The position numbers were made by a program, and so were the translations under genes. A stretch of 50,324 bases of DNA from IMG/VR virus record IMGVR_UViG_2681813429_000008, positions 1 through 50,324 of that record. The stretch is one strand, 5' to 3'. Position 1 is the first letter of the stretch. Every line of letters starts with the position of its first letter. The stretch comes from a virus (Duplodnaviria > Heunggongvirae > Uroviricota > Caudoviricetes). Positions 1 to 50,324 of the stretch are shown one piece after another. The notes beneath the pieces are model-generated. The model worked only from the letters and a program-made list of their open reading frames with translations, did not search any database and was not told the origin of the DNA.

Positions 1-1158
1 ATGCTCACCGTTAAGCAGATTGAAGCAGCAAAGCCGAAAGAAAAACCATACCGCCTACTCGATGGTAATGGCCTGTACCTTTATGTCCCTGTGTCAGGGA
101 AAAAGGTATGGCAGCTTCGCTACAAGATTGACGGTAAGGAGAAAATCCTGACCGTAGGAAAATATCCGCTAATGACTTTGCAGGAGGCAAGAGATAAAGC
201 ATGGACCGCGAGGAAAGACATCTCGGTTGGCATCGATCCGGTAAAAGCGAAAAAGGCTTCGTCTAACAACAATTCCTTTAGTGCGATTTACAAGGAATGG
301 TACGAGCACAAGAAGCAAGTCTGGTCAGTAGGGTATGCGACTGAACTTGCAAAAATGTTTGATGACGACATTTTACCTATCATCGGCGGCCTTGAAATTC
401 AGGATATTGAGCCGATGCAACTGCTGGAAGTAATCCGCAGATTTGAAGATCGCGGTGCAATGGAGCGAGCCAACAAAGCCCGCAGAAGATGCGGCGAGGT
501 TTTCCGTTACGCTATTGTCACTGGTAGGGCTAAATATAACCCGGCACCTGACCTTGCTGACGCCATGAAGGGATACCGCAAGAAGAACTTCCCATTTTTA
601 CCTGCCGACCAGATCCCGGCATTCAACAAAGCACTTGCAACATTTTCAGGAAGTATCGTATCGCTCATTGCGACCAAAGTTTTACGCTACACAGCCCTAA
701 GAACAAAAGAGCTTCGTTCCATGCTATGGAAGAACGTCGATTTTGAAAACAGGATTATCACCATCGACGCCAGTGTGATGAAGGGACGCAAAATTCATGT
801 TGTCCCGATGTCAGACCAGGTGGTTGAACTTCTCACTACACTAAGCTCAATCACTAAACCAGTATCAGAGTTTGTTTTTTCCGGGCGCAACGATAAGAAG
901 AAGCCAATCTGCGAGAACGCGGTGCTACTTGTGATCAAACAAATCGGCTATGAAGGTCTGGAAAGCGGTCACGGATTCAGGCATGAATTCAGCACGATTA
1001 TGAACGAGCACGAATGGCCTGCCGACGCCATTGAAGTGCAACTGGCACATGTCAACGGCGGATCTGTACGTGGAATTTACAACCATGCTCAGTATCTCGA
1101 TAAGCGCAGAGAAATGATGCAATGGTGGGCGGACTGGCTTGATGAAAAGGTGGAGTGA
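1..1158 (+). CDS. int: Tyrosine integrase, P4 family (IntC-like)
   Basis: 385 aa ORF. N-terminal KPKEKPYRLLDGNGLYL arm-binding motif and C-terminal catalytic region (HGFRH ... Y) typical of P4-type integrases. Begins at window base 1, so the true start could lie just upstream. Confidence 0.9.
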   Translation: MLTVKQIEAAKPKEKPYRLLDGNGLYLYVPVSGKKVWQLRYKIDGKEKILTVGKYPLMTLQEARDKAWTARKDISVGIDPVKAKKASSNNNSFSAIYKEWYEHKKQVWSVGYATELAKMFDDDILPIIGGLEIQDIEPMQLLEVIRRFEDRGAMERANKARRRCGEVFRYAIVTGRAKYNPAPDLADAMKGYRKKNFPFLPADQIPAFNKALATFSGSIVSLIATKVLRYTALRTKELRSMLWKNVDFENRIITIDASVMKGRKIHVVPMSDQVVELLTTLSSITKPVSEFVFSGRNDKKKPICENAVLLVIKQIGYEGLESGHGFRHEFSTIMNEHEWPADAIEVQLAHVNGGSVRGIYNHAQYLDKRREMMQWWADWLDEKVE

Positions 1159-1174
1159 ACCATCTTAAAAATCA

Positions 1175-1225
1175 ATGAAAACATGCAAGGCCTGGCACTC
1201 AAGTTACAGGCCTTGCGCATACAAT
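1175..1225. terminator. Bidirectional intrinsic terminator between convergent int and tailspike genes
   Basis: Inverted repeat GCAAGGCCTG...CAGGCCTTGC (~1185-1216) flanked by A/T-rich runs on both sides, between the int stop (1158) and tailspike stop (1267). Confidence 0.6.
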
Positions 1226-1266
1226 TTATCAACTAATAATTTAATTTTTTAAAATATCAATTAATT

Positions 1267-3441
1267 CTATCTAATCCTGAACATTACAATTGGAGCAGAG
1301 CCAGAAGATAAAGGGCCTGACCAATGGTATCTAATTCTGAAAGAAGACTCACTTGGAGTTCCGATAATTTCTATTGGACTTAAAGTTGCACCTTCTGCAG
1401 AACCAGCAGGTTGTCTAAACCCCAACACAGCAATCTGGTTTGGTGTTGGGGCATACAGAAAATTATGCTCAATATCAACCTCGTTAGATTCGCTACCTGT
1501 TGGGTTTGGCATATTCCACTCAATATAATCGTCAGTTGATTTCCCATTTATTGAGTTTCCAACTGTTGCCATAATCGTCCACGTACACGTCCTGTTAAGG
1601 GCTGCCATTCTATCACCTAAAAACCTATTATAACCATTTGCGCCTGAAGTGATTAATCTTATATTCTCTGATGCACATGTGCCAATGCTGTTAAATCCAG
1701 TGCAATCAGAAGAAAGCCCCTTCGCAGTTATATCTACGCTGTTCGCAAAACAAATTGTTGTTGAATTTACTGCATCGCGAATAAGAGCAGAACCCGAAAA
1801 CAAATTATCACACGAACCTCTTATATTATTACCACCGCCGGATAAGTAACATAAATTTCCTTTTATCCTCTTGGATGTAAAAGTAACATTGTTATTGTCA
1901 CCAGTAACAGAAAGAAGCGAGGCTTTAATAGGGGCATTGTCACTCTGCAACTGACCGATTTGGTTTATTGTAACTACATTGTTGTTGCCTGATATAGCTA
2001 TCTGATACCCATCATCATCAATTGAAGGTGAATATCTTTGTGCTTTTATATTGATGTTAAGTGTCCAGATTGTACCGTTATCCAGAAGCATGTCGCGGAG
2101 AGGAGAAATTGAATCGCCAGTGTAGTTATCTGGCATTCTTCCGCACGCCCTGGCTTCTGCGATGGCAACAACACCATGTGCCCCGTTGGTAAACCAGTAA
2201 CCACCTAAACTATTGTCAACACACACGTGCCTCGCATTGAATCGGTTAACACCCAGCGTCTTAAATCCATAGCCATAATACACAGCATATACATGGATGT
2301 AATTTATATCGACATGTCCTGTATAAGGAGACTGATTATCAAGAACAATTCCATGACATGGTTCTCCGGGATAAAGAAGGCTTTGTTGGCTTGTTGCTGT
2401 TAATCTTGCGCTGTAAGGAGGAAGTCCACACAGGCCAAAAACAATATAATCTAGGTTAATATCACCTGGCCCCCTGAACACAACCCCCTCTCTCCCTGAA
2501 ATTCTTCCCGTTATCCTCACTTCAGAGGCGTGTTCCTGATTATCATGAAATGATCCATACCCCTCTGAATAGAGAGCATGTTCTGCAACATTATTAATCT
2601 CAACGTCAATGTGGTACATGCTGCCGAATATTTTAATGGCAGTTCCATAATCATTGTTAACAGTGTCGCAAGTTCTCCATGAGTTTGTATCTCTTTGCAA
2701 GTCAAGATAATTACCATCAATGGTCATATCTTTTATGCTAAATCCATATGGCGCATCAGACAGATTTTCCACAACGCCAAAGCCATGTGTTTTAAATACA
2801 TCTGTATTACTACCTTTTTTAACATACAGAAATGTTGCTCTCTTTCCAGAGCCTTTATGATGAACGCCTGTATAAAGAATGATAGGAGAATCTATTAAAT
2901 AAACACCTGGAGGGTAAAATATTTCCCCGCCACCATTATTAAAAGCAGCTAATGCTGCGGCATTAATGGCATCAGAATCTGATGTCAATCCATCTGCTTT
3001 AGCTCCATAGTATTGAGGTGTTTTCCTGATTGCATCGTAAACCGTTGAAGCGCCGAAACCGATATATTTACTACCATCTGTACCGCCAATAAGTAATTTA
3101 AACTGATCCGGGTCGTACTTCAACACATTAGGAAAATTGAACTGCTGCGCCCCATATGCATCATAAACAGCCATAGAATGGCCTTGCACAGTTACGAACT
3201 TGGCAATCTGTCCGTTATATACCGGGTAACCAGCAGCGTTAATGATGATTGGTTGAGAAACAGGAACGTGAGAGCCGTCTTCGTTCTCCACATAAACCTG
3301 AATCTGGTTTTCTGGATTTACTGGGTCAGTGTCAATTTTACCGATATAAATTTTGCCATTAGCTACGGCTTTAAAAGAGCGGGCCATAGTAAAGAGTTGC
3401 GAAGGCATGCTCACTACAACATTGGCTGTAATGTCTGTCAT
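1267..3441 (-). CDS. Tailspike protein (P22-like N-terminal head-binding domain, divergent receptor-binding beta-helix domain)
   Basis: 724 aa. First ~110 aa ([11 protein letters not shown]...[13 protein letters not shown]...TVQGHSMA) closely resemble the P22 gp9 head-binding domain. The remainder is unrelated to the P22 endorhamnosidase domain. Confidence 0.85.
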
Positions 3442-3499
3442 TTAATTTGCTCCAGATACAAGGAATGGCCGCAGCGATTCATTATTAATCAAAAAATAC

Positions 3500-3512
3500 G
3501 ACCACCGTGGTC
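3500..3512. promoter_or_regulatory. Mnt operator-like palindrome (GACCACCGTGGTC)
   Basis: Near-perfect palindrome resembling the P22 mnt operator core (CCACGGTGG) as recalled, in the 135 bp between the tailspike start and the mnt start. Confidence 0.45.
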
Positions 3513-3576
3513 TTATTGAGGATGCAACCAGCAGATAATAAGATGCCGATCCACTCACAAGAGCGAGGCATCAAGA

Positions 3577-3828
3577 ATGGGAAGAGATGACCCGCAATTT
3601 AATCTGCGGCTACCTTACGAATTAAAGGAAAAACTAAAACAGCGAGCCAAATCCAATGGCCGCTCTCTTAATTCAGAATTAGTTCAGATAGTGACTGATG
3701 CTGTATCAAGGCCATCCAAAATTTCAGGCTATCGAGACGATGCGGAACGCATCGCTGATGAGCAATCAGAGCTTGTTAAGAAGATGGTGTTTGATACGCT
3801 GAAGGATTTGTACAAAAAACCCACCTGA
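3577..3828 (+). CDS. mnt: Mnt repressor (ribbon-helix-helix, Arc/Mnt family)
   Basis: 83 aa. MGRDDPQFNLRLPYELKEKLKQRAKSNGRSLNSELVQIV... closely matches P22 Mnt including the C-terminal ...DEQSELVKKMVFDTLKDLYKK. Confidence 0.9.
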   Translation: MGRDDPQFNLRLPYELKEKLKQRAKSNGRSLNSELVQIVTDAVSRPSKISGYRDDAERIADEQSELVKKMVFDTLKDLYKKPT

Positions 3829-3846
3829 AGGTGGGTCCTATTTATT
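3814..3846. terminator. Bidirectional intrinsic terminator (CCCACC-TGAA-GGTGGG)
   Basis: Perfect 6-bp stem with 4-nt loop, A-run upstream and T-run downstream. Lies between convergent mnt and the minus-strand lipoprotein gene; the mnt stop codon sits in the loop. Confidence 0.7.
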
Positions 3847-4264
3847 AGTCTTGCTTTGTTGATGGTATAAGAGATGCGTTTGCCTCTTTTGGCTTCAAGG
3901 TATACATCCCACCATTAAATGGATCTACAGCAAGCCAACCAATTAACCCACCAAACACAAGGTTCCCACCAATATACCAACCATTAGCATTGGCTTTGAT
4001 TGGCAGGGTAACTGGTTCGTACCCATCCTTCTCCATAGTGATCTGGTAGCTCTTTTTGCCAAAATAACTACCATCTGACTTGGCAAGAGTTACTCCTTGC
4101 GGGGTCTTACCTTGCGCAACAATCACGCCTGATTCGTCTTTTACCTTAAAGCTCGCACCGGAAGGATTGCTGTTCACTTGCACAAGCTGTGTTTCGTCAC
4201 CAACAATAGTTGCGCACCCAGATAACAATATAGCGCCAGCAACGACGCCGATAATCCTCTTCAT
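3845..4264 (-). CDS. Lipoprotein, PEGA-like domain (moron)
   Basis: 139 aa. Signal peptide with lipobox LLSGC. NPSGASFKV motif resembles a PEGA domain. Sits at the sieA/immI position of P22-like genomes. Confidence 0.7.
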   Translation of the reverse strand: MKRIIGVVAGAILLSGCATIVGDETQLVQVNSNPSGASFKVKDESGVIVAQGKTPQGVTLAKSDGSYFGKKSYQITMEKDGYEPVTLPIKANANGWYIGGNLVFGGLIGWLAVDPFNGGMYTLKPKEANASLIPSTKQD

Positions 4265-4398
4265 ATTACTTTCCGTTTTGTTAGAATCAGAAAGATCTTA
4301 ATAATAAAAAGTATTTTCGTGAAGATATTGTCGATTGAGTTAATAACTCATTTACACCCAACAGTGCCATGATGGCAAAGATAAGGAGAGTTATTCAT

Positions 4399-4884
4399 AT
4401 GAAAAAATCACTGTTAATTATCCCGCTTCTGCTGGCAGGGTGTGCAAAGGTTAGCGACTATCAGGCAAGTTGCGAACAACGCTATCCAAAGCTTAGCGAT
4501 ATGGCTAATTGCCTTGATGCCAGTGTGAAGAACGACTCACGCATGGCATCAGCACCAACACCTAAGCTGTATGTCCTTGCTGCAAAGATGCTCGGGCAAA
4601 GTGTCGATGAAGGCAAGATAAGTGACGCACAGGCAAGACTTGAGCTTCAGAATCTTTATGTTCAATTACAAAGCCAAGAACAAGCCCAACAAATAGCGCA
4701 AAGCCAAGCATTCCAGCAGGCTTTATTGAATTATCAGGCTGTAAACACAATGCAAGCGATCGAGCAAAAAGCGAGACAGCCTGTTATAACTCAACCCTAT
4801 CCAACACGCGTTGACACTTACACAAACTGCAATTCAGGGTTTGGAAATACAGTCACATGCAACAGTAGCAGTAACATCAGATAA
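4399..4884 (+). CDS. Lipoprotein, Gln-rich (moron)
   Basis: Start chosen at MKKSLLIIPLLLAGC (lipobox LLAGC) preceded by AAGGAGAG. Q-rich central region. Oriented opposite to the late operon. Confidence 0.7.
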   Translation: MKKSLLIIPLLLAGCAKVSDYQASCEQRYPKLSDMANCLDASVKNDSRMASAPTPKLYVLAAKMLGQSVDEGKISDAQARLELQNLYVQLQSQEQAQQIAQSQAFQQALLNYQAVNTMQAIEQKARQPVITQPYPTRVDTYTNCNSGFGNTVTCNSSSNIR

Positions 4885-19331: not shown

Positions 19332-19595
19332 CTACTTCACTTTTGCTTTTGCTTCCGCTCGCTTACGCCGGCGCTCTTCTTTCCTCTCGGCTTTTGCCAT
19401 GTCCATGAATGCCTGCATGATCGAGTTCCGCATCATGTAGCTAACAAAGTGATGATTGACACAGCCGTTGAGGCGCAGCTGCTCGCCAAACTCATCCACC
19501 GAGGCCAATGCTTCCATCATGCCCTTCTCGCCTTTCATGAACTCTGAGAAGTCGCGCCCCGCTCTGGAGGCGCATTCAATAACACGATCACTCAT
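19332..19595 (-). CDS. Hypothetical phage protein (basic C-terminus)
   Basis: 87 aa ORF, translationally coupled to the upstream KilA-N gene. Confidence 0.5.
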   Translation of the reverse strand: MSDRVIECASRAGRDFSEFMKGEKGMMEALASVDEFGEQLRLNGCVNHHFVSYMMRNSIMQAFMDMAKAERKEERRRKRAEAKAKVK

Positions 19596-20089
19596 CCCGG
19601 AAGCCCGGGGATCGTAATCTGCAGCTGGTTAGCCAGGGAGTTAATCTCAGCGACCAACACTGGCTTCGTATAGCGCCATGCTGCCAGCCCTTGTCCGCAG
19701 AAGCTCGCCATGTCTTTCTTCTGGTCAAACTCATGACATTTCATGTTGAGCTGCGCACTTAAGCTGTTGCGATGCTGAAGTTCTCCGGTGAAGTAGTCAT
19801 CGAGAACTTTATAGGCCGCGTACTTGAACCCGGGGTTTAACCAAGCCGCATAATCGTAAGCAACAAACTTCCCGCCATATGTTCCACCGTGTACACCGCG
19901 CTCAGTAAAAACCACAGATTCGTGGTTTTTCTCCAGCTCGGCTAAGAACTCTTTGGTCTGCTTGTTTCGCAGGTAGTGGTAAGGCGATTCAGATTCACTT
20001 TTACCACTGGCTTTCCACATATCAGTGAGGCAGATCATGCCATCTTCACCGATACGAATTGGTTGATTGAAGAGGGTTAATGATTTCAT
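19592..20089 (-). CDS. KilA-N domain protein
   Basis: 165 aa. N-terminal LTLFNQPIRIGEDGMICLTDMWKASG resembles the KilA-N DNA-binding domain. Confidence 0.6.
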   Translation of the reverse strand: MKSLTLFNQPIRIGEDGMICLTDMWKASGKSESESPYHYLRNKQTKEFLAELEKNHESVVFTERGVHGGTYGGKFVAYDYAAWLNPGFKYAAYKVLDDYFTGELQHRNSLSAQLNMKCHEFDQKKDMASFCGQGLAAWRYTKPVLVAEINSLANQLQITIPGLPG

Positions 20090-21749: not shown

Positions 21750-21825
21750 TGGTGCTGGTTAACGGACTTGAACCGCTACCCATTCGCTTACAAGGCGACT
21801 GCTCTACCATTGGAGCTAAACCAGC
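21750..21825 (-). tRNA. tRNA with anticodon UGU (Thr-like)
   Basis: Hand-folded 76 nt cloverleaf: 7/7 bp acceptor stem (GCTGGTT/AACCAGC), D-arm GCTC/GAGC, anticodon loop CTTGTAA, T-arm with TTCAAGT loop, encoded 3' ACCA. Confidence 0.6.
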
Positions 21826-21830
21826 ATATT

Positions 21831-21905
21831 TGGCGGGACAGCGTGGACTCGAACCACGATAAGAAGGTTAACAGCCTTCCGTAATGACCTTTATACGACT
21901 GACCC
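21831..21905 (-). tRNA. tRNA-like sequence, anticodon GUU (Asn-like), degenerate
   Basis: 75 nt. Good anticodon arm (GAAGG-CTGTTAA-CCTTC) and T-arm (CGTGG-TTCGAGT-CCACG) and 3' GCCA, but acceptor stem has a T-T mismatch and D-stem only 3 bp. Confidence 0.4.
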
Positions 21906-39370: not shown

Positions 39371-39501
39371 TTTATTTATTCATATATGAAAACAATGTAA
39401 CCAATATTCGAATTGAAGAACTGAAAGAACACCAAGCCGCCTGATGGCGGTTTTTTATTGCCTGATTTGCAGGTTCGATTCCCTATTCGGAGATAGCACT
39501 C

Positions 39502-39702
39502 ATGCAACACGAACTACAGCCTGATTCACTGGTTGATTTGAAATTCATCATGGCTGATACTGGCTTTGGTAAAACCTTCATCTACGACCGGATTAAGTCC
39601 GGCGACCTGCCAAAAGCCAAAGTTATCCACGGGCGAGCAAGATGGTTATATCGTGACCATTGTGAATTCAAAAATAAGCTCTTAAGCCGCGCCAATGGGT
39701 AA
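39502..39702 (+). CDS. xis: Excisionase (Xis/AlpA-family winged helix)
   Basis: 66 aa, last gene of the PL operon, directly upstream of the att core. Confidence 0.6.
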   Translation: MQHELQPDSLVDLKFIMADTGFGKTFIYDRIKSGDLPKAKVIHGRARWLYRDHCEFKNKLLSRANG

Positions 39703-39774
39703 AATAGCGGGTAAAATATTTTTCACATCTAAAAAACATCATTCCAATCAATCCCCTGCAACCTCAAGTAGATG

Positions 39775-39790
39775 TCTGCAGGGGACACCA
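39775..39790 (+). other. att core: copy of a tRNA-Arg (argW-like) 3' end, junction between prophage and satellite
   Basis: TCTGCAGGGGACACCA ends in an aminoacyl acceptor 3' end and matches the last ~15 nt of E. coli argW as recalled. Lies between xis and the second integrase, about 160 bp upstream of its start. Confidence 0.55.
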
Positions 39791-39950
39791 TGAACACTTC
39801 TCACTAAGTTCAATTAATTCCATAACTCACTGTTTTAACTGATATCATCTCCTTATACTCGTCCAGCAAAGTACCATTATTTCTAATGGAATCTATACAT
39901 CTTTGCGTATAACATTGTGTATAACTGAGTTCGATCTTTTTTCTATACAC

Positions 39951-41126
39951 ATGCTGCTATCTGACATCCAAATAAAAAGAGCAAAACCGAAGGACAAACC
40001 CTATACGCTTAACGATGGTATGGGGCTATCACTCCTGATCGACACAGCGGGCAGTAAAGGCTGGCGTTTTCGCTATCGCTTTGCAGGTAAGCCTAAGATG
40101 ATTTCCTTTGGCGTATATGGCGATGTGTCGTTGGCACAGGCACGTACCAAACGTGATGAAGCGCGTTCGATGTTAGCCAACGGGATAAACCCAAGTGAAG
40201 CCAGAAAAGCAGATAAGATTGCTTTGCAGTTCGCGCATGAGAACAGCTTTGAGTCTGTGGCCAGAGAATGGCACTCATCGAAAAAAGCCACCTGGTCAGA
40301 GGGTTATGCAAAAGAGGTTCTCAATTGTATGGAAAAGGATATTTTTCCTTTTATCGGCCAGCGCCCAATTGAGCAGATTGAACCATTAGAACTGCTAACC
40401 GTCCTGCAAAAAATAGAGAAAAGAGGTGCGCTAGAGCAAACCAGTAAGATCCGCCGCCGCTGTGGTGAAGTGCTTCGTTATGCTGTTGCCACTGGTAGAG
40501 CAAAGTATAATTTTGCACCCGATTTAGCTATCGCACTCAACAAACCTAAAACCCAACACTTCCCGTTCCTGACTGAAAGCGAGTTGCCCGAGTTCGTTAA
40601 TGCTCTGGATAACTATCAGGGCAGTTTAGTTACCAAATACGCCACGCAGCTGTTGATGCTAACAGGCGTGCGAACAATTGAACTACGTGCAGCGGAATGG
40701 GCTGAGTTTGATTTAGATAATGCCTTATGGGAGATCCCCAAAGAACGGATGAAGAAACGCCGCCCCCATCTGGTTCCGTTATCAACTCAGGCGATCAATA
40801 TCCTGAAAAAGCTGCAAGAAATAACAGGGAATTACAGCCTCGTTTTCCCTGGCCGGAATGACGTCAGTAAACCAATGAGCGAAGCCAGCATCAACAAAGT
40901 GATAAAACTACTGGGTTATCACGGTCGGTTAACGGGTCACGGTTTCAGGCATACCATGAGCACCATCTTGCATGAGCATGGGTTTGAAAGTGCCTGGATT
41001 GAAATGCAGCTTGCGCATGTTGATAAGAACTCTATTCGAGGTACTTACAATCATGCGCAATATATTAAAGATCGACAAGTAATGATGGAATGGTACGCTA
41101 GCTTATTAAATACGACCTGCTATTAA
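39951..41126 (+). CDS. int: Tyrosine integrase, P4 family (second copy)
   Basis: Start chosen at ATG MLLSDIQIKRAKPKDKPYTLNDG. Shares the RRCGEV.RYA..TGRAKYN.APDLA and HGFRHT motifs with the first integrase. Confidence 0.9.
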   Translation: MLLSDIQIKRAKPKDKPYTLNDGMGLSLLIDTAGSKGWRFRYRFAGKPKMISFGVYGDVSLAQARTKRDEARSMLANGINPSEARKADKIALQFAHENSFESVAREWHSSKKATWSEGYAKEVLNCMEKDIFPFIGQRPIEQIEPLELLTVLQKIEKRGALEQTSKIRRRCGEVLRYAVATGRAKYNFAPDLAIALNKPKTQHFPFLTESELPEFVNALDNYQGSLVTKYATQLLMLTGVRTIELRAAEWAEFDLDNALWEIPKERMKKRRPHLVPLSTQAINILKKLQEITGNYSLVFPGRNDVSKPMSEASINKVIKLLGYHGRLTGHGFRHTMSTILHEHGFESAWIEMQLAHVDKNSIRGTYNHAQYIKDRQVMMEWYASLLNTTCY

Positions 41127-42056
41127 ATCCAGCATGAAACAAATATGGTGAGTAATTTGATACTGTTTGTTTTTTGGCAACCCAGGGAAATGCCTTACAG
41201 TTGGTTGACTATTGTAATAATAATAGTTAAGACCAATGTTGCTGCCAAACTGGGTTGGATGTTGGGGAACAAGATTTGTAATTTGATCTGAAACATCTAA
41301 AAATTTTGCAGTAACATTTGAACTTCCTCGTTGCGTGTTGCTTGATACAAAATGACGAATCCAAACTGTATTCGCTTGTAAATTCTTGAACACCAAATGT
41401 GCGGCAACAGCAGAAGGTTGACCACCTCCAAGATCTAGTACCTGGCCAGTAATTGTATAATCGCCAAATCCTAAGTAATTTTGTCCCACGAATTGATGTG
41501 CGTGCGTGAAAAGTTCCGGCCCATTATAATCAGCATTTTTTGCTAACTTTCTAAAGTTATCGCTAATAATAATTAACTTCGACAAAGGAAGAAGAGCGCA
41601 CTGATTAGGAAGCATTTTATTATTTAAAACAACATGATAACTAATCAATTGATTTGTCGCCAACAACTGAATATCAGAGTTGGATAATGATGGATTATCA
41701 TATAGAAGTGCAACTCGTCTATTTAAGTTAGCATTCAACCAATTATTAATATCATTAATCGTTGTATTGGGCTGAATAAGATATCCAGAGATGATATTAT
41801 TTTTATTTGTTAATACACTTGATAAATTTTGATTTAAAGTTAAGACGTTATTGTGTGAAGAAAAATCTTCCTGATAAGGATTAAGGATAACAATTATGTC
41901 AGAATTCCAAACATTTAAACATGTTAATAAATTTCTCGTATTGACGTTAATTGGTTCTAAAATTGGTAGCAGACCATTTAGGCTAACTCCCTTCGCAACG
42001 AGGTCCCTAAGGCATAATAACTCTGTACTTCTCGCATACAAATATGGGCTATACAT
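41106..42056 (-). CDS. Hypothetical protein, AT-rich cargo gene B (downstream gene of a two-gene cassette)
   Basis: 316 aa, Asn/Leu-rich, coding GC far below the surrounding DNA. Its 3' end overlaps the integrase 3' end by ~21 nt. No recognised domain. Confidence 0.6.
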   Translation of the reverse strand: MYSPYLYARSTELLCLRDLVAKGVSLNGLLPILEPINVNTRNLLTCLNVWNSDIIVILNPYQEDFSSHNNVLTLNQNLSSVLTNKNNIISGYLIQPNTTINDINNWLNANLNRRVALLYDNPSLSNSDIQLLATNQLISYHVVLNNKMLPNQCALLPLSKLIIISDNFRKLAKNADYNGPELFTHAHQFVGQNYLGFGDYTITGQVLDLGGGQPSAVAAHLVFKNLQANTVWIRHFVSSNTQRGSSNVTAKFLDVSDQITNLVPQHPTQFGSNIGLNYYYYNSQPTVRHFPGLPKNKQYQITHHICFMLDLIAGRI

Positions 42057-42077
42057 AACTTACAACTCCTGAGGATA

Positions 42078-42959
42078 TCAACAAATTTTAATTTTTACAT
42101 CCATCAAATTCATGATGAATTCTTTTTGCTTTCTTGATAATGGTGTTGCATAACCTAAAACACGTAAACATGCTGGAAGAGAATAAATATAATCCAAAAA
42201 AACTTTATCGTTACATCTTTTTTTCATAGCAGAGATAAAGTATTTATTTGCTATGTTTAATGGCATCTGCATGAATATCTCTTTACAATATTCATAAACC
42301 AATCCGTTAGGCATATTTATTTTAGTTGAAGTGTAATCTTCTATTATAGCTAAGAACTCTTCCTTTCTAAGAACTGAAAACAAGCTGTCACTTTTAATAT
42401 AATCAATATTTGAATCTGCCTCCTTAATGACACTCAATTGATCTTTTTTATTCAAAACCATAACTCCCACTCTGGGGAGATTTAAAGCACAATATTTACT
42501 TGCATACTCTGGATGTGTAACTATATACACTTTATCAAAAACATCCAAATAATCAGGGGCTTGAGTAATCAACCTTTTTGGTGAATCATACTCTGTCTTA
42601 ATCTCGTAAGCTGTAGACGTACCATTAAACACCGCAACATCCACTATAGAGTTTTTAATTGGTAACTCTATGGACGACGAACTTGTTTTTGGGCTGTGCT
42701 TACCGAATATTATTTTATTGACAAGTGCTGTCTTATAAACATATTCATTTCTATAATTCAGACGCAAAAAATCATATAATGATGTAAATAAATCCCTTAG
42801 TGAAATCTCATGTTCATTATTATCATTGTTTGAAAACAGTGTTTCATAGCAGTAAGAATCAAAACTCCCAAATAAATCCGAAATATCCTTACCTTTTGCT
42901 AAGGATGAAAAAATGGGGCGACGGAAAAATTTAGCATATTCCTTTTTATTATGACTCAT
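42078..42959 (-). CDS. Hypothetical protein, AT-rich cargo gene A; possible PD-(D/E)xK nuclease-like motif
   Basis: 293 aa. Motif IVDVAVFNGTSTAYEIKTEYD has the hydrophobic-D ... E-x-K spacing of restriction-endonuclease-like folds. 21 nt upstream of gene B. Confidence 0.6.
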   Translation of the reverse strand: MSHNKKEYAKFFRRPIFSSLAKGKDISDLFGSFDSYCYETLFSNNDNNEHEISLRDLFTSLYDFLRLNYRNEYVYKTALVNKIIFGKHSPKTSSSSIELPIKNSIVDVAVFNGTSTAYEIKTEYDSPKRLITQAPDYLDVFDKVYIVTHPEYASKYCALNLPRVGVMVLNKKDQLSVIKEADSNIDYIKSDSLFSVLRKEEFLAIIEDYTSTKINMPNGLVYEYCKEIFMQMPLNIANKYFISAMKKRCNDKVFLDYIYSLPACLRVLGYATPLSRKQKEFIMNLMDVKIKIC

Positions 42960-43638
42960 TACTCATACTCTATAAACATCATGCAATTTGATAAGTTATG
43001 ACGAATTCTCACCATCCAGTTACTACCTGTACATACTAATCAAAAAAAACGAGTACGCAAGATACGAAAGTACTTTTCTTGTTCACCAGTTAGCTTACCT
43101 TGATCCTCACCAGCGACTGGAAGATAGGTAGCAGTATATGTGGAAACCTTCCCCTAGCTAGGTCTACAAACGTAGTTTGGGCATTTAGGCTCCACGATTC
43201 ACGGTTTGACACGGCCTGATATCTGCACATTCGTTTTGATATGCAGCAATCGTGAAAAAGGAAAATATACGCTCGACAGACCAAAACGGCACTACACCGC
43301 ACCCGCCTGCGGTTTTCATATCACTAAAAATTTTCAGCCTGGATTTTTTACAAACGATACCGCCAGTCCGTGCCAGTCCTCGAGATGTACTGCGATACAG
43401 GAACTGAAAAGAATGAAAAGAAATTCATTTTTTTTCAGTTTTACTGTCCGTCGAATCTATGGCCTGAATACGCAACTCTATGATATTAAATGGATAATTA
43501 ATTTTAGGTGTGTGATTTTATGAAGGTTTGTGAAACATGAAGAAGATAACCAGTTGAAAAATAATAATTTTATGACCGTATAAACTGAAATCCTGTGTTC
43601 AGGTTCCGGGAACAGATCGGCCATTCCCGACGCATACT

Positions 43639-43911
43639 TTACCCATTCTTTTGCGCAGCCAGCAGCAACTTTAAAGCCTTTTCCCGTTCCTCGGGTGGAA
43701 TTGCATCAATCAGCTCTTTAACCCTTCCCTGCCCGTTCAGCGCGCTTGGACTAACGGAATGGGAGAAAGCAACATTCATCACAAACGAGTGACCGCACTC
43801 CACATTAGAGCAATAGCAGTACACATCGTACAGTTGTGGGTGTTTCCTGTTTGTTTTACCTATCCGTGCTACTGCCTGACATGTGGGGCAGTACATTCTC
43901 ATCATCTTCAT
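43639..43911 (-). CDS. ogr: Ogr/Delta-family zinc-finger late-gene activator
   Basis: 90 aa with CPTC...C.C...C.H zinc-finger pattern (MRMYCPTCQAVARIGKTNRKHPQLYDVYCYCSNVECGHSF) characteristic of P2 Ogr / P4 Delta. Confidence 0.85.
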   Translation of the reverse strand: MKMMRMYCPTCQAVARIGKTNRKHPQLYDVYCYCSNVECGHSFVMNVAFSHSVSPSALNGQGRVKELIDAIPPEEREKALKLLLAAQKNG

Positions 43912-43979
43912 CGTTCTGTGCCCTATACTGTTGCCCGCCAGAAGAAGGGATTTGGATCCCTACCTCTTGTTCTGAACGT

Positions 43980-44170
43980 GTAACACTGGTAACACGTGTA
44001 ACGCTATTGATTTAAAAGGATTTAATCTGTTACCAGTTAGCAAAATCAAGAGGTAACGCGTGGTAACACACCATTTTTTGTTACCTCTGTTACCAGTCAG
44101 TATTTTTGACTGGTAACACTGAAGAACCGCATCAGTAACGGGTGTTACCTCTGTTACCAGTGTTACCTCA
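43980..44170. repeat. Iteron array (GGTAACAC / GTGTTACC heptamer-octamers, about 12 copies): putative satellite origin
   Basis: Repeated GGTAAC(A/G)C and complementary GTTACC motifs in both orientations between ogr and the primase gene. Resembles the P4 ori/crr octamer TGTTCACC as recalled. Confidence 0.7.
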
Positions 44171-44193
44171 TAAAAATAAGACTCACGCGATAA

Positions 44194-46881
44194 TCACTCA
44201 GGTTCAGCGCTTCCCAGTACCTGTGTATTGAACTGGTACACACGTTTAAGCCCTATTTCTGGCAGGCGAATGCTGTTTTGCGTCCGGCCATCTTCACCGG
44301 GTTTCAGCCAGCCCGCGTCCACACACAACCTGGCCACCTTACGCGAGTCAAATCCCTTACAGATCTCCTTCCAGCCTGACGGGAGAACGTAGAACGTCAC
44401 AACCGGCTCTGTCACGTTGTCTCCTTTATCGACTTTTCTGAATCCCATCATTGAAACAGGCCGGTTCCTGTCGTCATTCCAGTCAGCAAACCGACTGAAC
44501 TGATTACGCGTCATGAAGTCCCGAACCTGTTCAAGTGCCGCTTTATCTTCCTGATTAGCTGTATGGCCCCGGTCAGCCATCCATGCAGCCAGACAGCTTT
44601 GAGCGGCACGAAAGGCCTCTCCCTCCGGCCATCCTGTGATGCCCGCTTTTGTGGCCAGCTCCCCGGCCATCGCAACCAGAGCAAAACGGGTAACAGCCCG
44701 GCCAACCTGATTCCCGGCATTTTCCGGCGTCAGCCTTCGGGTATACTCTTTCAATAAGGCTTTCGCCTGACTGGTCAGTTCCGGCAGATCAGCGGTCAGG
44801 CAATACAGCCAGTCGCGGAATGGTGCACCATGATAATGCGCTACGTGCTGCTCAAGATGCTCAGCCAGGGTTTTCCCGCTACTGAAGCCATGAAGTTCTT
44901 CAAACACGCCATACTTGCCCGAATCGCTTGGGATCTGGATCATTCTGACCTCAACCCCGGCATACGTACGTTCCCCGGCGCTTGCCGCATGCTCTACCAG
45001 TGACAGTTCCCCGGTAGACAGAAACAACAGATTCCAGCGGTTGGTTTCCCTTACCGAACCATCTGTTCTGGCTCTGGCTTTGCCCTGCCCGTTAGCCAGC
45101 ATATAAGCGATATTTCCCGCCTCCCTGCCGTCAACCTCCCGGATTTCATCCAGCATCAGCGTGGCATCATTGCGGCGGCTCGCCGTTCCTTCTAAGGCAT
45201 TCCCCGTCGCCCGCCACGTATGCCAGAAATCTGTTCCACCACATACTGATGCAGCCACTTTCATCGTCGTGGTTTTACCGTCTGTGGATTCCCCTTTGAG
45301 GTGATAACCTCCACCGCCGATACCAACCAGTTTCAGAAGGGGGGCAGCAAATGCCAGACTCACCGCAAAGGCAAGACGGGCATTCTTTATGCAATAACGG
45401 CCTATATTTTCACGCCAGCCCTCTGATGTGCCGCTGACACGAAAATCACGCCCCTGCACACTCGATGTTTGTAAGATGACTGACTGGGCTTCGCGCCCTA
45501 TCACTTCATCCTGGAGAACGTAAACCCCGCCGTGCCAGCCAGTTTTATTCACACAGGTTACTTTTCTGTCCGGTTTACACAGCGAGATATATTCCATCAG
45601 GAATGCTCTGGCCATGCCGTTAATGTTGATGTAAGAAAGCCCGTTAACCAGCAGAACGCGGCGCAGTTCTTCCCCGCTACCGCCCAGCATCTCCATCGGC
45701 ATTGCCCATTTACGGCTGTTTCCGTTGGTATCTTCCCATTCCAGCAAACGCCCGTAATTACTTCCATCAGCATCACTGGTGATTGCCGTCACCCGCAACG
45801 GACTGCAAATTTTGATATTACGTATCTCTGTATCACCATCAGACTTATTAACCAGCTTGTCGTACCACAAATATTCTTTTGTCAGCCGGAACCCTTCTGG
45901 TAAACGGGTCTGCCCTTTGCCATGCAGCGTCATTTCTTCACGAAAGGCATCTCTCGCCCGTTCTTTCCCCACTTCCTGCCGATAATCATCCCAGTCAGCC
46001 TTATGGCGTACCGGAGGGAGCGTTACCCAGCCATCCACCGCTTTGGCGGCTTTCTCTGCCTGAATACGCCCGGTGTTTTCTTTGCCGTCAGCCAGATCAT
46101 TATCTCCGGCCAGAATGATCCGGGTTTCCGGCCAGCGTTTTCGGATCTGCTCCGTCACCTTCAGTAAATTGGTGGCAGCGACAGCCGCCACGATCCATCC
46201 TTCAGTCAGCAGACTGACGGTAAGCGCCGTGGCAAAACCCTCAGTGATAATCACCTGTTCAGGTGTTTCAGCGGGTATATCGGTCAGGGCAATGAATGCG
46301 CCAGACAGCTGGCTACCGGGCAGCAGACTTTTATCCCCGTCAGGATTGATAAGCTGGCCACCAGTAATATTCCCGGAAATATCCGTCAAAGGCAGCAGTA
46401 ATGAACCGGTGGAAAATGTTATTCCGGCCAGATTCAAAGGCTGTGACAGCAAGGGAAGTGAATACCCGTGTAAGCTCTTATTTGTCAGATAGACCGGCTC
46501 ACCATTGCAGGACTGCTGTCTGAGTCTGGTATATCGCTCCGCGCCCGCTTCTTTTCCTGCGGCCTTTTTCCTGGCTGGCAATGCGGGCTTCTCCTGTATT
46601 TCTGGTAATGCAAGCGCCTCAGATACCATCCCGGCGACTTCTTTTATCTTTCTTCCTGTCACCAGACGAACCAGATCAAGACCATCGCCATGACCGCACT
46701 GATTACAAAACCACGTCCCTCGCCCCGCTTTATCGTCCAGTCGAAAACGATCTTTTCCACCACAGGCAGGGCAAGCCCCATGATGTCCTGCGGACGGTAC
46801 TTTAATACCTAATGCTGACAGGATATAAGGCCAGCGCCCAATTGCAGCTCCGGAAATCGTGGATACAGACGGTGTTTTCAC
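44194..46881 (-). CDS. P4 alpha-type primase-helicase
   Basis: 895 aa. N-terminal zinc-binding primase region (CPACGG...CNQCGHGDGLDLV), central Toprim-like region, C-terminal P-loop NTPase (KGESTDGKTT). Confidence 0.85.
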   Translation of the reverse strand: MKTPSVSTISGAAIGRWPYILSALGIKVPSAGHHGACPACGGKDRFRLDDKAGRGTWFCNQCGHGDGLDLVRLVTGRKIKEVAGMVSEALALPEIQEKPALPARKKAAGKEAGAERYTRLRQQSCNGEPVYLTNKSLHGYSLPLLSQPLNLAGITFSTGSLLLPLTDISGNITGGQLINPDGDKSLLPGSQLSGAFIALTDIPAETPEQVIITEGFATALTVSLLTEGWIVAAVAATNLLKVTEQIRKRWPETRIILAGDNDLADGKENTGRIQAEKAAKAVDGWVTLPPVRHKADWDDYRQEVGKERARDAFREEMTLHGKGQTRLPEGFRLTKEYLWYDKLVNKSDGDTEIRNIKICSPLRVTAITSDADGSNYGRLLEWEDTNGNSRKWAMPMEMLGGSGEELRRVLLVNGLSYININGMARAFLMEYISLCKPDRKVTCVNKTGWHGGVYVLQDEVIGREAQSVILQTSSVQGRDFRVSGTSEGWRENIGRYCIKNARLAFAVSLAFAAPLLKLVGIGGGGYHLKGESTDGKTTTMKVAASVCGGTDFWHTWRATGNALEGTASRRNDATLMLDEIREVDGREAGNIAYMLANGQGKARARTDGSVRETNRWNLLFLSTGELSLVEHAASAGERTYAGVEVRMIQIPSDSGKYGVFEELHGFSSGKTLAEHLEQHVAHYHGAPFRDWLYCLTADLPELTSQAKALLKEYTRRLTPENAGNQVGRAVTRFALVAMAGELATKAGITGWPEGEAFRAAQSCLAAWMADRGHTANQEDKAALEQVRDFMTRNQFSRFADWNDDRNRPVSMMGFRKVDKGDNVTEPVVTFYVLPSGWKEICKGFDSRKVARLCVDAGWLKPGEDGRTQNSIRLPEIGLKRVYQFNTQVLGSAEPE

Positions 46882-47288
46882 AGCAGCACCTCCTGACCTT
46901 CCGGCTTCACAAATTCAAAACCTTCGGGTAGTTCGCCATCAGGTGCTCCGAAAATAATATCCCGGTAAACCTCACGCATCTCTGTGACACCAAAAACTGA
47001 CAGGCGAATATTTTCTGACATAAAGCCTGGTTTAAGCATTTTTTCCAGTTTCTCTGCGGCCAGTATGCAACCAGCATCAGCCCCAAACTCATTCACCCAC
47101 GGCATTTCAATATGGTAAATAATATTACTCACCACTTTTTCGTGGGAGAGTTCTATTCGTTCGCCATCTTCAATATAAACAGGTTCATTATGAACACGCA
47201 CCATTAAGGAAATGAATGCATCAGCAATGTAGTAGCGTAAGACTGCTGTTCGTAAAGCATGCGCCTTTAAATTTTGATTATTATTCAT
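46878..47288 (-). CDS. Hypothetical satellite protein
   Basis: 136 aa ORF overlapping the primase start by 4 nt. Confidence 0.5.
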   Translation of the reverse strand: MNNNQNLKAHALRTAVLRYYIADAFISLMVRVHNEPVYIEDGERIELSHEKVVSNIIYHIEMPWVNEFGADAGCILAAEKLEKMLKPGFMSENIRLSVFGVTEMREVYRDIIFGAPDGELPEGFEFVKPEGQEVLL

Positions 47289-47517
47289 CGCGCATCACTC
47301 CCTTAATTGTGCTGGTTTCCTTAACAACGCCATCCAGTTGTTCGGCAATACAGGCCACTAAAGCCGCAGCGCCTTCCGCTGAAACAGTTCTCGCTCCATT
47401 CACTGTGGGCACGGACAAGACCTCTGCAAGAAACTCACTGGCCAGTGCCGCCCGTAACAGACGACTCTCCCCCTGTTCACTCAATATGCAGCCTTGCTTA
47501 AAATTCATGGATTTCAT
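47281..47517 (-). CDS. Hypothetical satellite protein
   Basis: 78 aa ORF, translationally coupled to its neighbours. Confidence 0.45.
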   Translation of the reverse strand: MKSMNFKQGCILSEQGESRLLRAALASEFLAEVLSVPTVNGARTVSAEGAAALVACIAEQLDGVVKETSTIKGVMRDE

Positions 47518-47717
47518 GCAACCACCTCCCCGGCTCTTTTCACAGGGATACGGGCAGCAAAGCTCAGGATAAATTCAGTGGCAAGTTTAAGGCGTGCAGC
47601 ATGCTCGCATTCTGCGATTACACGCACAGGGCGTGGACGGGCATCACGGTCTGTACGGCGGACAGCCAGAAAGACAAAGGTAAATTCAGGGTGAGATAAA
47701 GCAGGGACTGTAGCCAT
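47514..47717 (-). CDS. Hypothetical small protein
   Basis: Only the last 67 codons of the 196-codon track ORF look genuine: internal ATG (MATVPALSHPEF...) preceded by AAGGAGG at ideal spacing. Confidence 0.45.
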   Translation of the reverse strand: MATVPALSHPEFTFVFLAVRRTDRDARPRPVRVIAECEHAARLKLATEFILSFAARIPVKRAGEVVA

Positions 47718-48149
47718 AATGGCAACCTCCTTCAGATAGCGGGTAACGCTACCACCGGAGTTCCTACGCTCATGGGTGGTAGCCCAGACGGGGGTAGGAA
47801 TACCGGCTCTGAAGGATACCGGCCAGCCCGAAAGCTGCCCCGCCTGGACTACCATAATTCTGATGATGTGGCGTAAAAAATAAAAAAATACAATCAGCCA
47901 CCACACCATAAATTTTAGGTGAGTCAAAGCTGCGACACAAAAAAACACGCCTAGCGCGTGTAGTATCGCCTTCAGATAACACGGGTTCCTACGCCCGGCT
48001 GCCGATTTTGCGGCAACCTTTAAACTATATCCCGCGCATTCCTGGTGAGGCAAGAAATTTATAACCGAAAACTGATCATTGCCTGGATTAATTAACGCTG
48101 GCATGCTTAAGCCTCTGCTTAAAAATAGTTCTTCATTTTTCCTGATGCT

Positions 48150-48182
48150 GTAAACGAGACCCGCCTCTGAGCGGGTCTTTCT
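48150..48182. terminator. Intrinsic terminator (GACCCGC-TCTGA-GCGGGTC)
   Basis: Perfect 7-bp stem with T-rich flank, immediately downstream of the capsid-homolog gene stop. Confidence 0.55.
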
Positions 48183-48191
48183 GTCGCTAAG

Positions 48192-49196: not shown

Positions 49197-49218
49197 AGTT
49201 TTTCACCTTTTTAAGTAT

Positions 49219-50079: not shown

Positions 50080-50096
50080 ATATTTGCCACCTCAAT

Positions 50097-50324
50097 TTAG
50101 GAGTTTAATTTTCTATTGAGAATATTCTTCTCTATCCATTCATTAACTTCATGCTCCACCCATGCAACAGAACGAGAACCGATAGAAACTTGGTTCGGAA
50201 ATTCATCATTCTTTATCTTTAGATAAATTGTTGACTTGGGTAAGCCAGTCAAATTAATCACTTCTGATATTCTCAGAAGTCTATATCTTTTTTGGGGTGC
50301 GTTTTCCCGAGGCAATAAGCTCAT
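50097..50324 (-). CDS. alpA: AlpA-family transcriptional regulator
   Basis: 75 aa; YRLLRISEVINLTGLPKSTIYLKIKNDEFP...VAWVEHEVNEWI is the canonical AlpA winged helix. ORF starts at the window edge, so the true start may lie beyond. Confidence 0.8.
   Translation of the reverse strand: MSLLPRENAPQKRYRLLRISEVINLTGLPKSTIYLKIKNDEFPNQVSIGSRSVAWVEHEVNEWIEKNILNRKLNS

What the first reader, a model, noticed from the sequence alone, without database searches (positions are those of the whole stretch)
3442..3576. Mnt repressor retained without arc/ant; Mnt operator-like palindrome lies in front of the tailspike gene
In P22 the immI region is mnt, arc, ant and Mnt represses the ant promoter. Here only mnt is present, and a palindrome GACCACCGTGGTC resembling the P22 mnt operator sits ~60 bp upstream of the tailspike start, in the 135 bp between divergent mnt and tailspike genes. 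Mnt may now regulate tailspike transcription or only itself.
Basis: partly seen in the sequence, partly recalled or inferred. Interest (0 to 1): 0.55.

Follow-up and report, generated by a model that had tools for sequence, protein, structure and literature searches.

The report
Mnt repressor-operator cassette beside tailspike
This is the phage L/ST64T-type remnant of the P22 second-immunity region: a small repressor gene (mnt) with its own binding site and promoter, sitting next to the tailspike gene without the antirepressor it controls in P22. The arrangement is already described in the literature, and I found no sign that it drives tailspike transcription.

Summary
Mnt (3577-3828, +) and the tailspike gene (1267-3441, -) are divergent and 135 bp apart. 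A perfect palindrome, GACCACCGTGGTC, lies at 3500-3512. No arc, ant or sar is present in the window.

The arrangement is not new. Phage L, ST64T, ST104, SE1, ST160 and Gally have it, as do 104 of 5426 complete E. coli genomes and 80 of 80 Gln6-type IMG/VR loci. Two papers describe it (PMC2629481, PMC8022706).

The palindrome sits where P22 Omnt sits: next to the -35 of a P22-Pmnt-like promoter (TTGAGG-17-TAAGAT), centred near -45.

The divergent promoter it represses in P22 (Pant) has decayed here to TCGGCA-17-TGCATC. No sigma-70-like promoter above background points at the tailspike.

The repressor's DNA-reading strand (His6 to Gln, PQFNLRLP) and the operator (AGGTCCAC to AAGACCAC) change together with no exception seen. 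Mnt is under purifying selection (dN/dS about 0.1).

Best reading: a live, self-contained Mnt-operator-Pmnt cassette. The tailspike is reached by late-operon read-through. What Mnt does for the phage remains open.

The parts
1267..3441 (-). Tailspike gene (724 aa): P22 gp9-type N-terminal head-binding domain with a different receptor-binding part
   Evidence: ORF. PHROG 8280 matches the full length, and many tailspike PHROGs match residues 1-116/140. The N-terminal DNA is shared with HK620, Sf6 and CUS-3.
3442..3478 (-). Conserved tailspike leader with Shine-Dalgarno GGAG (3450-3453 as CTCC on the + strand); homologous to the sequence just upstream of P22 gene 9
   Evidence: Alignment with P22 L001 3660-3704 and with all L-type loci.
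3479..3497 (.). Variable AT-rich linker between the tailspike leader and the operator; a mosaic junction
   Evidence: Absent in Salmonella phages, of different length in E. coli loci, and replaced by an insertion of about 290 nt in others.
3498..3514 (.). L-type Mnt operator ACGACCACCGTGGTCTT; core palindrome 3500-3512, centre base 3506
   Evidence: Same register as P22 Omnt. In 66 of 72 loci the 6+6 arms are exact, while the centre base is any of the four bases.
3516..3544 (+). Pmnt-like promoter TTGAGG (3516-3521), 17 nt spacer, TAAGAT (3539-3544); predicted start near 3551, which puts the operator centre near -45
   Evidence: PWM score 9.5, in the top 4.6e-5 of all scores in the window. Same register as P22 Pmnt TTGAGA-17-TATCAT. 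Below the 9-of-12 threshold of the simple scan.
3521..3549 (-). Decayed equivalent of P22 Pant: TCGGCA (3549-3544), 17 nt spacer, TGCATC (3526-3521)
   Evidence: Position-for-position alignment with P22 TTGACA-17-TATATT. Phage L has TCGGCA-17-TATATC and ST160 has TGTATC. PWM score is at background level.
3577..3828 (+). mnt, 83 aa, L-type (Gly1, Gln6; strand PQFNLRLP), with a P22-like C-terminal tetramerisation domain
   Evidence: dN/dS is 0.10 against ST160.
3819..3836 (.). Bidirectional intrinsic terminator overlapping the mnt stop codon. It ends mnt transcripts, and it is the barrier that late or moron transcripts must read through to reach the tailspike gene
   Evidence: Fold energies are -12.9 (+) and -14.5 (-) kcal/mol, z about -2.3 to -2.5. 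The same site is annotated as a terminator in epsilon34.

Best explanation
The palindrome is the operator of an L-type Mnt repressor, and with mnt and its promoter it forms a self-contained cassette.

Inferred by homology with P22: a Mnt tetramer binds the 17-bp site AAGACCACnGTGGTCTT through its N-terminal beta-strands.

Shown from sequence: the site abuts the -35 hexamer of the mnt promoter at the same distance as Omnt does in P22, centred near -45. It is therefore placed to set Mnt's own level.

Shown from sequence: the divergent promoter that the operator covers in P22 (Pant, which drives arc-ant and partly gene 9) has lost its key bases here.

Inferred from the P22 precedent: the tailspike gene is not fed by a Mnt-controlled promoter. 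It is reached by late-operon transcription that reads through the terminator at 3819-3836, runs antisense across mnt, and enters the conserved gene 9 leader.

Shown from sequence: mnt is kept by purifying selection, so it is not a dying remnant.

Not resolved: its pay-off to the phage. The most likely candidates are blocking stray rightward-to-tailspike or antisense transcription in the lysogen, or an unlinked target.
For: (1) Homology and register. The operator core CCACnGTGG, the flanking CTCAAT, the Pmnt -35 and -10 hexamers and the 1-bp gap between operator and -35 all align with the annotated P22 Omnt/Pmnt.

(2) Co-variation.
- All 80 Gln6 Mnt loci from IMG/VR carry the GACCACnGTGGTC-type site (74 with exact arms, 6 with one arm mismatch), 79 of them 79 nt upstream of the ATG (one at -117), and all 80 have a tailspike as divergent neighbour. 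The GenBank phages L, ST64T, SE1, ST160, Gally and 720R6 do the same.
- All 12 His6/RMPM loci carry AGGTCCACnGTGGACCT together with arc and ant.

(3) Operator signature. The arms are nearly invariant, with 6 single mismatches in 72 loci, while the centre base takes all four values.

(4) Promoters. The site toward mnt scores 9.5 (top 4.6e-5). The best site toward the tailspike scores 4.8-5.5, which is background. The P22 Pant control scores 15.3, and the simple scan finds nothing either.

(5) Selection.
- dN/dS is 0.10 at dS 0.54 against ST160. Against phage L, synonymous sites are saturated while dN is 0.16.
- 70 of 72 copies are full length.
- The same N-terminal domain is joined to three different C-terminal domains.

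(6) Module boundary. The conserved block runs from the operator to mnt, and the tailspike side is a variable junction.

(7) P22 Pant and Pmnt are divergent, overlapping promoters (PMC2724298).
Against: No binding or transcription data exist for any L-type Mnt.

If the operator only served autoregulation, it is unclear what selects for the gene at all.

A weak -10-like hexamer exists on the tailspike-directed strand inside the Pmnt region: TATTAT here at 3540-3535, TATGAT in phage L. It has a poor -35. Transcripts from it would cross the operator at about +11 to +27, so a weak Mnt-repressed promoter cannot be excluded.

In P22, Mnt binding is reported to stimulate Pmnt by shutting off Pant (my recollection of Vershon et al. 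1987, not checked here). Without Pant, the sign of autoregulation in this cassette is unknown.

There are only two or three independent sequence lineages, so the conservation statistics are weak.
Confidence: 0.6

Rival explanations
1. One reading: with arc and ant gone, the old Pant now directly drives the tailspike gene. Mnt bound at the palindrome represses tailspike transcription in the lysogen.
For: The operator lies between mnt and the tailspike gene, 58 nt from its ATG. In P22, some Pant transcripts reach gene 9 (my recollection of Berget et al. 1983). Villafane et al. speculated that Mnt and Arc influence transcription into the tailspike gene (PMC2629481). A weak -10-like TATTAT/TATGAT exists on that strand.
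Against: The Pant hexamers have decayed stepwise: TATATT in P22, TATATC in L, TGTATC in ST160, TGCATC here; the -35 went from TTGACA to TCGGCA. No promoter scores above background on the tailspike strand in the window, L, ST160 or Gally. The spacing and sequence between operator and tailspike are not conserved.
Confidence: 0.12
2. Roadblock or insulator. Mnt bound at the operator, together with convergent Pmnt transcription, blocks RNA polymerase that escapes the 3819-3836 terminator from reaching the tailspike gene. Such polymerase would come from the prophage-expressed moron gene at 3845-4264 or from late transcripts. The effect would be to keep the tailspike silent in lysogens, or to tune its dose late in infection, including on superinfecting phages with the same operator.
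For: The operator lies on the only path from the late operon to the tailspike gene in every L-type locus. A co-oriented moron gene and a terminator lie just upstream. This would give a selectable role that fits the purifying selection. A similar idea is raised in PMC2629481.
Against: This rests purely on position. Antiterminated late polymerase would be expected to pass such obstacles. Cytoplasmic tailspike in a lysogen has no obvious cost. No data exist.
Confidence: 0.18
3. Mnt acts in trans on something outside this locus, such as an antirepressor gene of a superinfecting phage or a host or other prophage promoter. The local operator serves only for autoregulation.
For: This would explain selection on the protein. 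P22 Mnt's natural role is to silence ant.
Against: There is no second site within 2 mismatches in the 50 kb window. No L-type operator was ever seen with arc or ant. From memory: P22 grows on phage L lysogens through Ant, so L Mnt does not silence P22 ant.
Confidence: 0.08
4. Non-functional remnant of a degraded immI region, one of the two options offered for phage L in PMC8022706.
For: arc, ant and Pant are gone. 2 of 72 copies are truncated and 6 of 72 operators carry a mismatch. Klebsiella phage phiKp_30 keeps the operator and promoter but has lost mnt.
Against: dN/dS is about 0.1, with saturated synonymous divergence against phage L. The DNA-reading strand and operator arms are invariant across E. 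coli and Salmonella phages. The module is present in 104 E. coli genomes.
Confidence: 0.06
5. The palindrome is an intrinsic terminator or attenuator hairpin in front of the tailspike gene, not a protein site.
For: The simple scan flags it on the - strand as a 5-bp stem followed by GTATTTTTTG.
Against: The hairpin is only -6.4 kcal/mol, z -0.8, and 41 of 200 shuffles fold as well. The T-run is absent in Salmonella phages. The site is homologous to P22 Omnt.
Confidence: 0.03

Closest known systems
mnt-only 'ant moron' of Salmonella phages L, ST64T, ST104, SE1 and ST160
   Same: Same gene order: ejection-protein genes, small moron gene(s), mnt, then a divergent tailspike. The intergenic length is the same (about 135 bp). 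The Mnt N-terminal sequence (MGRDDPQFNLRLPYELKEK), the operator core and the Pmnt register are the same. Described in PMC2629481 and PMC8022706.
   Different: The host is E. coli. The Pmnt hexamers are TTGAGG/TAAGAT rather than TTGTGG/TATGAT. There is an extra AT-rich linker on the tailspike side. The C-terminal domain is P22-like rather than L-like. The flanking moron genes and tailspike specificity differ.
P22 immI region (mnt, Omnt, Pmnt/Pant, arc, sar, ant)
   Same: Mnt is 75% identical. The operator has the same core and the same position relative to Pmnt, and it lies between the gene 16 region and gene 9.
   Different: arc, ant, sar and the Arc operator are absent. Pant has decayed. The operator half-site is AAGACCAC rather than AGGTCCAC. 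Mnt residue 6 is Gln rather than His, with further changes in the strand (F9L, M11L, M13Y).
P22 Arc repressor
   Same: Same ribbon-helix-helix fold family. The DNA-reading strand of this Mnt (PQFNLRLP) is nearly that of Arc (PQFNLRWP).
   Different: This protein has the Mnt N-terminal arm (GRDDP) and the Mnt tetramerisation domain. Its site is Omnt-like, not the Arc operator ATGATAGAAGCACTCTACTAT.

Membership tests
Mnt repressor (Arc/Mnt ribbon-helix-helix family) | N-terminal Arc-like ribbon-helix-helix DNA-binding domain | tested here: met
   Pfam PF03869, E 1.1e-21, residues 3-50; PDB 1MNT, E 7e-34.
Mnt repressor (Arc/Mnt ribbon-helix-helix family) | C-terminal Mnt tetramerisation domain | tested here: met
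   Pfam PF11423, E 1.4e-18, residues 53-80; PDB 1QEY, E 3e-12.
Mnt repressor (Arc/Mnt ribbon-helix-helix family) | Cognate 17-bp palindromic operator with CCACnGTGG core next to the -35 of its own promoter | tested here: met
   Site at 3498-3514, 1 bp from TTGAGG, in the same register as the annotated P22 Omnt/Pmnt.
Mnt repressor (Arc/Mnt ribbon-helix-helix family) | Sequence-specific binding of the protein to that operator | not testable with these tools
   Supported only by class-specific co-variation of protein and site.
P22-type immI secondary immunity region | Antirepressor gene ant | tested here: not met
   tblastn with P22 Ant gives a best E of 0.36.
P22-type immI secondary immunity region | arc gene and Arc operator inside Pant | tested here: not met
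   Arc hits only mnt itself. The Arc-operator segment is unrelated in the alignment.
P22-type immI secondary immunity region | Strong Pant promoter overlapped by Omnt | tested here: not met
   The equivalent hexamers are TCGGCA/TGCATC, with a background-level PWM score against 15.3 for P22 Pant.
P22-type immI secondary immunity region | sar antisense RNA | tested here: not met
   No Rfam match.
L/ST64T-type mnt-only ant moron | mnt divergent from the tailspike gene with nothing between, located after the ejection-protein genes | tested here: met
L/ST64T-type mnt-only ant moron | Gln6-type Mnt N-terminus with a GACCACnGTGGTC operator 79 nt upstream of the ATG | tested here: met
Intrinsic terminator | Stable GC-rich hairpin followed by a conserved U-tract | tested here: not met
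   -6.4 kcal/mol, z -0.8; the T-run is not conserved.

The most novel reading that the evidence does not exclude
The L-type Mnt and its operator are a natural altered-specificity pair (His6 to Gln with G-to-A and T-to-A half-site changes). The pair has been re-purposed. Expressed from the prophage, Mnt sits on the single path into the tailspike gene and gates tailspike transcription, on the resident genome and on superinfecting phages that share the operator. It would act by roadblock or through a weak hidden promoter. That would make it a tailspike-directed control or exclusion device rather than an antirepressor regulator.
Probability: 0.15. Interest if true: 0.55.

Novelty: already known. 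Interest (0 to 1): 0.25.

Why it matters
The practical value is mainly in annotation and interpretation. A lone mnt next to a tailspike gene in E. coli and Salmonella prophages should be read as the phage L/ST64T-type cassette. It is not evidence for a hidden antirepressor switch or for a Mnt-controlled tailspike promoter.

Two modest points go beyond what the papers I could read state.

First, the gene is under purifying selection and travels with an intact operator. This argues against the 'degrading remnant' option left open for phage L.

Second, the protein and operator classes co-vary without exception. This offers a natural test case for the residue-6 'master residue' studies of Mnt specificity.

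Why phages keep Mnt without Ant is still a small open question.

Tried and rejected
- GTDB representative genomes: the protein-based scan found no relatives. The operator-plus--35 DNA pattern gave only 8 chance hits in unrelated MAGs. The module appears absent from the one-genome-per-species set.
The 73 hits not next to mnt were unrelated sequence, many of them recurring copies of the same stretches, so it gave no evidence of other targets.
- Rfam, at both E-value and gathering thresholds: nothing in the region.
- The terminator reading of the palindrome was rejected on fold energy and lack of conservation.
- The simple promoter scan found nothing on either strand. A PWM scan with P22 controls was needed to see Pmnt.
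- Primary papers on Mnt-operator contacts (Stormo and Sauer labs; PMC506813, PMC140065, PMC30133, PMC55749) are not held. Statements about which bases His6 contacts, and about Mnt stimulating Pmnt, rest on my memory and are marked as such.
- The Kapi1 lysogen transcriptome (PMC12922286) concerns a mnt-arc-ant phage and is not informative for L-type cassettes.

Full report
**Observation.** The window carries a P22-like (Lederbergvirus) prophage.
- The tailspike gene is at 1267-3441 on the - strand, with a P22 gp9-type N-terminus and a PHROG 8280 match over its full length.
- An 83-aa ORF at 3577-3828 on the + strand diverges from it. They are separated by 135 bp.
- The ORF is a true Mnt. It has the Pfam Arc domain plus the Mnt tetramerisation domain, is 75% identical to P22 Mnt, and matches PDB 1MNT and 1QEY.
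- The palindrome GACCACCGTGGTC is at 3500-3512 and is the only such site in the window, even allowing 2 mismatches.
- tblastn with P22 Arc, Ant, SieA and orf59a finds no arc or ant, and Rfam finds no sar RNA.
A 6-n-6 palindrome alone is not unusual: the window has 17 against about 12 expected. The case for function has to come from homology and conservation.

**The arrangement elsewhere.**
- The same mnt-tailspike layout, with a gap of about 135 bp, occurs in Escherichia phages Gally and vB_EcoP-720R6. It also occurs in Salmonella phages ST160, SE1, SW-70, L, ST64T, ST104 and SPN9CC, among others.
- It occurs in 104 of 5426 complete E. coli genomes.
- It is in the literature. Villafane et al. 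2008 describe the variable 'ant moron' between the ejection-protein genes and the tailspike gene. They note that ST64T, ST104 and Para1 carry only mnt plus a gene of unknown function. They also remark that Mnt and Arc might influence transcription into the tailspike gene (PMC2629481).
- Zaworski et al. [quoted passage not shown] **Comparison with P22.** I oriented the sequences as in P22 and anchored them at the centre of the palindrome.
- The window reads ...CCTCAAT AAGACCACGGTGGTCGT, against P22 ...TCTCAAT AGGTCCACGGTGGACCT.
- The P22 record annotates Omnt, Pant and Pmnt at this position.
- On the mnt-directed strand, the window has TTGAGG (3516-3521), a 17-nt spacer, then TAAGAT (3539-3544). 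This is in exact register with P22 Pmnt, TTGAGA-17-TATCAT.
- In both phages the operator ends 1 bp before the -35 hexamer and is centred near -45.
- On the other strand, the positions of P22 Pant (TTGACA-17-TATATT) read TCGGCA-17-TATATC in phage L. The -10 reads TGTATC in ST160 and SE1, and TGCATC in the window. This is a stepwise loss of the critical bases.
- The Arc-operator segment between the hexamers is unrelated.

**Promoter scan.** I ran a position-weight scan with P22 as the control.

| Site | Score | Rank among window scores |
|---|---|---|
| P22 Pant (control) | 15.3 | above every window score |
| P22 Pmnt (control) | 13.0 | above every window score |
| Window Pmnt-like site (toward mnt) | 9.5 | top 4.6e-5 |
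| Best site toward tailspike, in window, L, ST160 or Gally | 4.8-5.5 | about what chance gives in a region this size |

The built-in consensus scan also found no promoter. The best tailspike-directed candidate has a decent -10 (TATTAT here, TATGAT in L) inside the Pmnt region, but a poor -35. I keep it as a caveat only.

**Module boundary.** I aligned 47 distinct L-type upstream regions.
- One conserved block runs from the operator to the mnt ATG.
- A second conserved block is the tailspike leader, which is shared with P22.
- Between them is a variable junction: a direct join in Salmonella phages, an AT-rich linker of 23-36 nt in most E. coli loci, and an insertion of about 290 nt in others.
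- The operator therefore travels with mnt, not with the tailspike gene.

**Co-variation of protein and site.**
- In IMG/VR, all 80 loci whose Mnt begins MGRDDPQFNLRL (Gln6) carry the GACCACnGTGGTC-type site: 74 with exact arms and 6 with one arm mismatch. In 79 of them it lies 79 nt upstream of the ATG, and in one (L233) at -117. All 80 have a tailspike N-terminus as divergent neighbour.
- All 12 loci with the P22-type MARDDPHFNFRMPM (His6) carry AGGTCCACnGTGGACCT at -74, together with arc and ant.
- The L-type half-site differs from P22 at two symmetric positions: AGGTCCAC becomes AAGACCAC.
- The L-type reading strand PQFNLRLP is almost that of Arc (PQFNLRWP).
- From memory (Knight and Sauer; Stormo lab), residue 6 is the 'master residue' that sets base preference in the outer half-site. 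A His-to-Gln change paired with G-to-A fits the usual Gln-adenine pairing. I could not retrieve those papers.
- Across 72 loci the 12 arm positions show 6 single mismatches, while the centre base takes all four values. This is the expected pattern for a dimer-of-dimers site.

**Selection.**
- Window against ST160 mnt: dS 0.54, dN 0.054, dN/dS 0.10.
- Against phage L, synonymous sites are saturated while dN is 0.16.
- 70 of 72 copies are full length.
- The same N-terminal domain is joined to three different C-terminal domains: P22-like, L-like and a third in L299. The DNA-binding domain plus operator is therefore the conserved unit.
- This argues against a decaying remnant.

**Other readings tested.**
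- As an RNA hairpin on the tailspike strand, the palindrome folds at only -6.4 kcal/mol (z -0.8), and its T-run is absent in Salmonella phages. It is not a terminator.
- The real terminator is the bidirectional one at 3819-3836 (-14.5 and -12.9 kcal/mol), which is annotated at the same place in epsilon34.
- I found no second operator in the window.
- GTDB representative genomes gave nothing useful.

**Mechanism I commit to (confidence about 0.6).** The palindrome is the operator of an L-type Mnt.
- It forms a self-contained cassette with Pmnt and mnt, and it sets Mnt's own level.
- The ant promoter it once covered has decayed.
- The tailspike gene is expressed by late-operon read-through, as in P22.
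- Shown here: positions, homology, co-variation, selection, and the lack of a promoter signal toward the tailspike.
- Inferred: binding, the sign of autoregulation, and read-through.
- Open: what selects for Mnt. The leading candidate is a roadblock or insulator role on the only path into the tailspike gene (0.18). Next come a weak Mnt-repressed tailspike promoter (0.12) and an unlinked target (0.08).

**Verdict.** The window is an E. coli example of it. Interest is low to modest.

Noticed in passing
window 39470-50324: A second mobile element lies in tandem after the P22-like prophage. It starts with a tRNA-like 3' fragment (GGTTCGATTCC...) near 39480, followed by an AlpA-like small ORF. Then come an integrase at 39903-41126 (46% identical to the integrase at 1-1158), a P4-type primase with DUF927 at 44194-46881, C4 antisense RNA at 47772-47859, isrK at 47940-48017, and a P2-family capsid gene at 48192-49196. 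It looks like a P4-like satellite or a P2-related element.
   Followed up: partly
window 1-1266; L002 1040-1120: The integrase at 1-1158 lies directly next to the tailspike gene, convergent with it. This is expected for a prophage only if attP lies upstream of int. Phage Gally has its own, different integrase, plus an 81-nt fragment that is 100% identical in translation to the last 27 residues of this one. That points to int-module exchange or an att site at the 3' end of int. No att repeat was found.
   Followed up: partly
window 3506 and the same column in L012-L091: The centre base of the operator is the most variable column of the whole intergenic region. A, C, G and T all occur among otherwise near-identical sequences. 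Flipping of the palindrome centre by template switching would explain the C/G and A/T pairs.
   Followed up: no
window 3542-3572: The mnt leader contains nested inverted repeats: GATGCC/GGCATC around CACTC-ACAA-GAGCG. The Salmonella version (CACTT-ACAA-AAGTG) differs by one compensatory pair and one mismatch. This may be a leader hairpin near the Shine-Dalgarno sequence (by eye).
   Followed up: no
window 3845-4264 (-) and 4369-4884 (+): Two lipoprotein-like genes of unknown function sit in the 'ant moron' between mnt and the ejection-protein genes, where P22 has sieA. They have signal peptides with a Cys lipobox and match PHROG 6823 and 6067. The first is a homologue of epsilon34 gene 15.
   Followed up: partly
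L011 (Klebsiella phage phiKp_30) about 3000-3100: This phage keeps the L-type operator and the Pmnt region (87% identical) next to its tailspike-like gene, but the mnt coding sequence has been replaced by other DNA. It is an example of the cassette decaying.
   Followed up: partly
L076-L078, L080: A third Mnt class (MARDDPHFNFRMPL, His6) has no CCACnGTGG site within 400 nt upstream. Instead, about 390 nt away, there is a strong divergent promoter with ATGCGTACC direct repeats, followed by a 38%-identical Arc-like gene and a 56%-identical Ant.
   Followed up: partly
window 19592-20089 (-): A KilA-N plus ORF11CD3 protein follows the lysis genes. These domains are common in antirepressor-like and Rha-like phage regulators. 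It has no Mnt operator nearby and is not a P22 Ant homologue.
   Followed up: partly
window 21750-21905 (-): tRNA-Thr(TGT) and tRNA-Asn(GTT) genes lie inside the prophage.
   Followed up: no
RefSeq records NC_002371, NC_011802, NC_014900 and others; PHROG 795: Mnt is mislabelled 'partition protein ATPase' in several RefSeq phage records and in the PHROG annotation.
   Followed up: no
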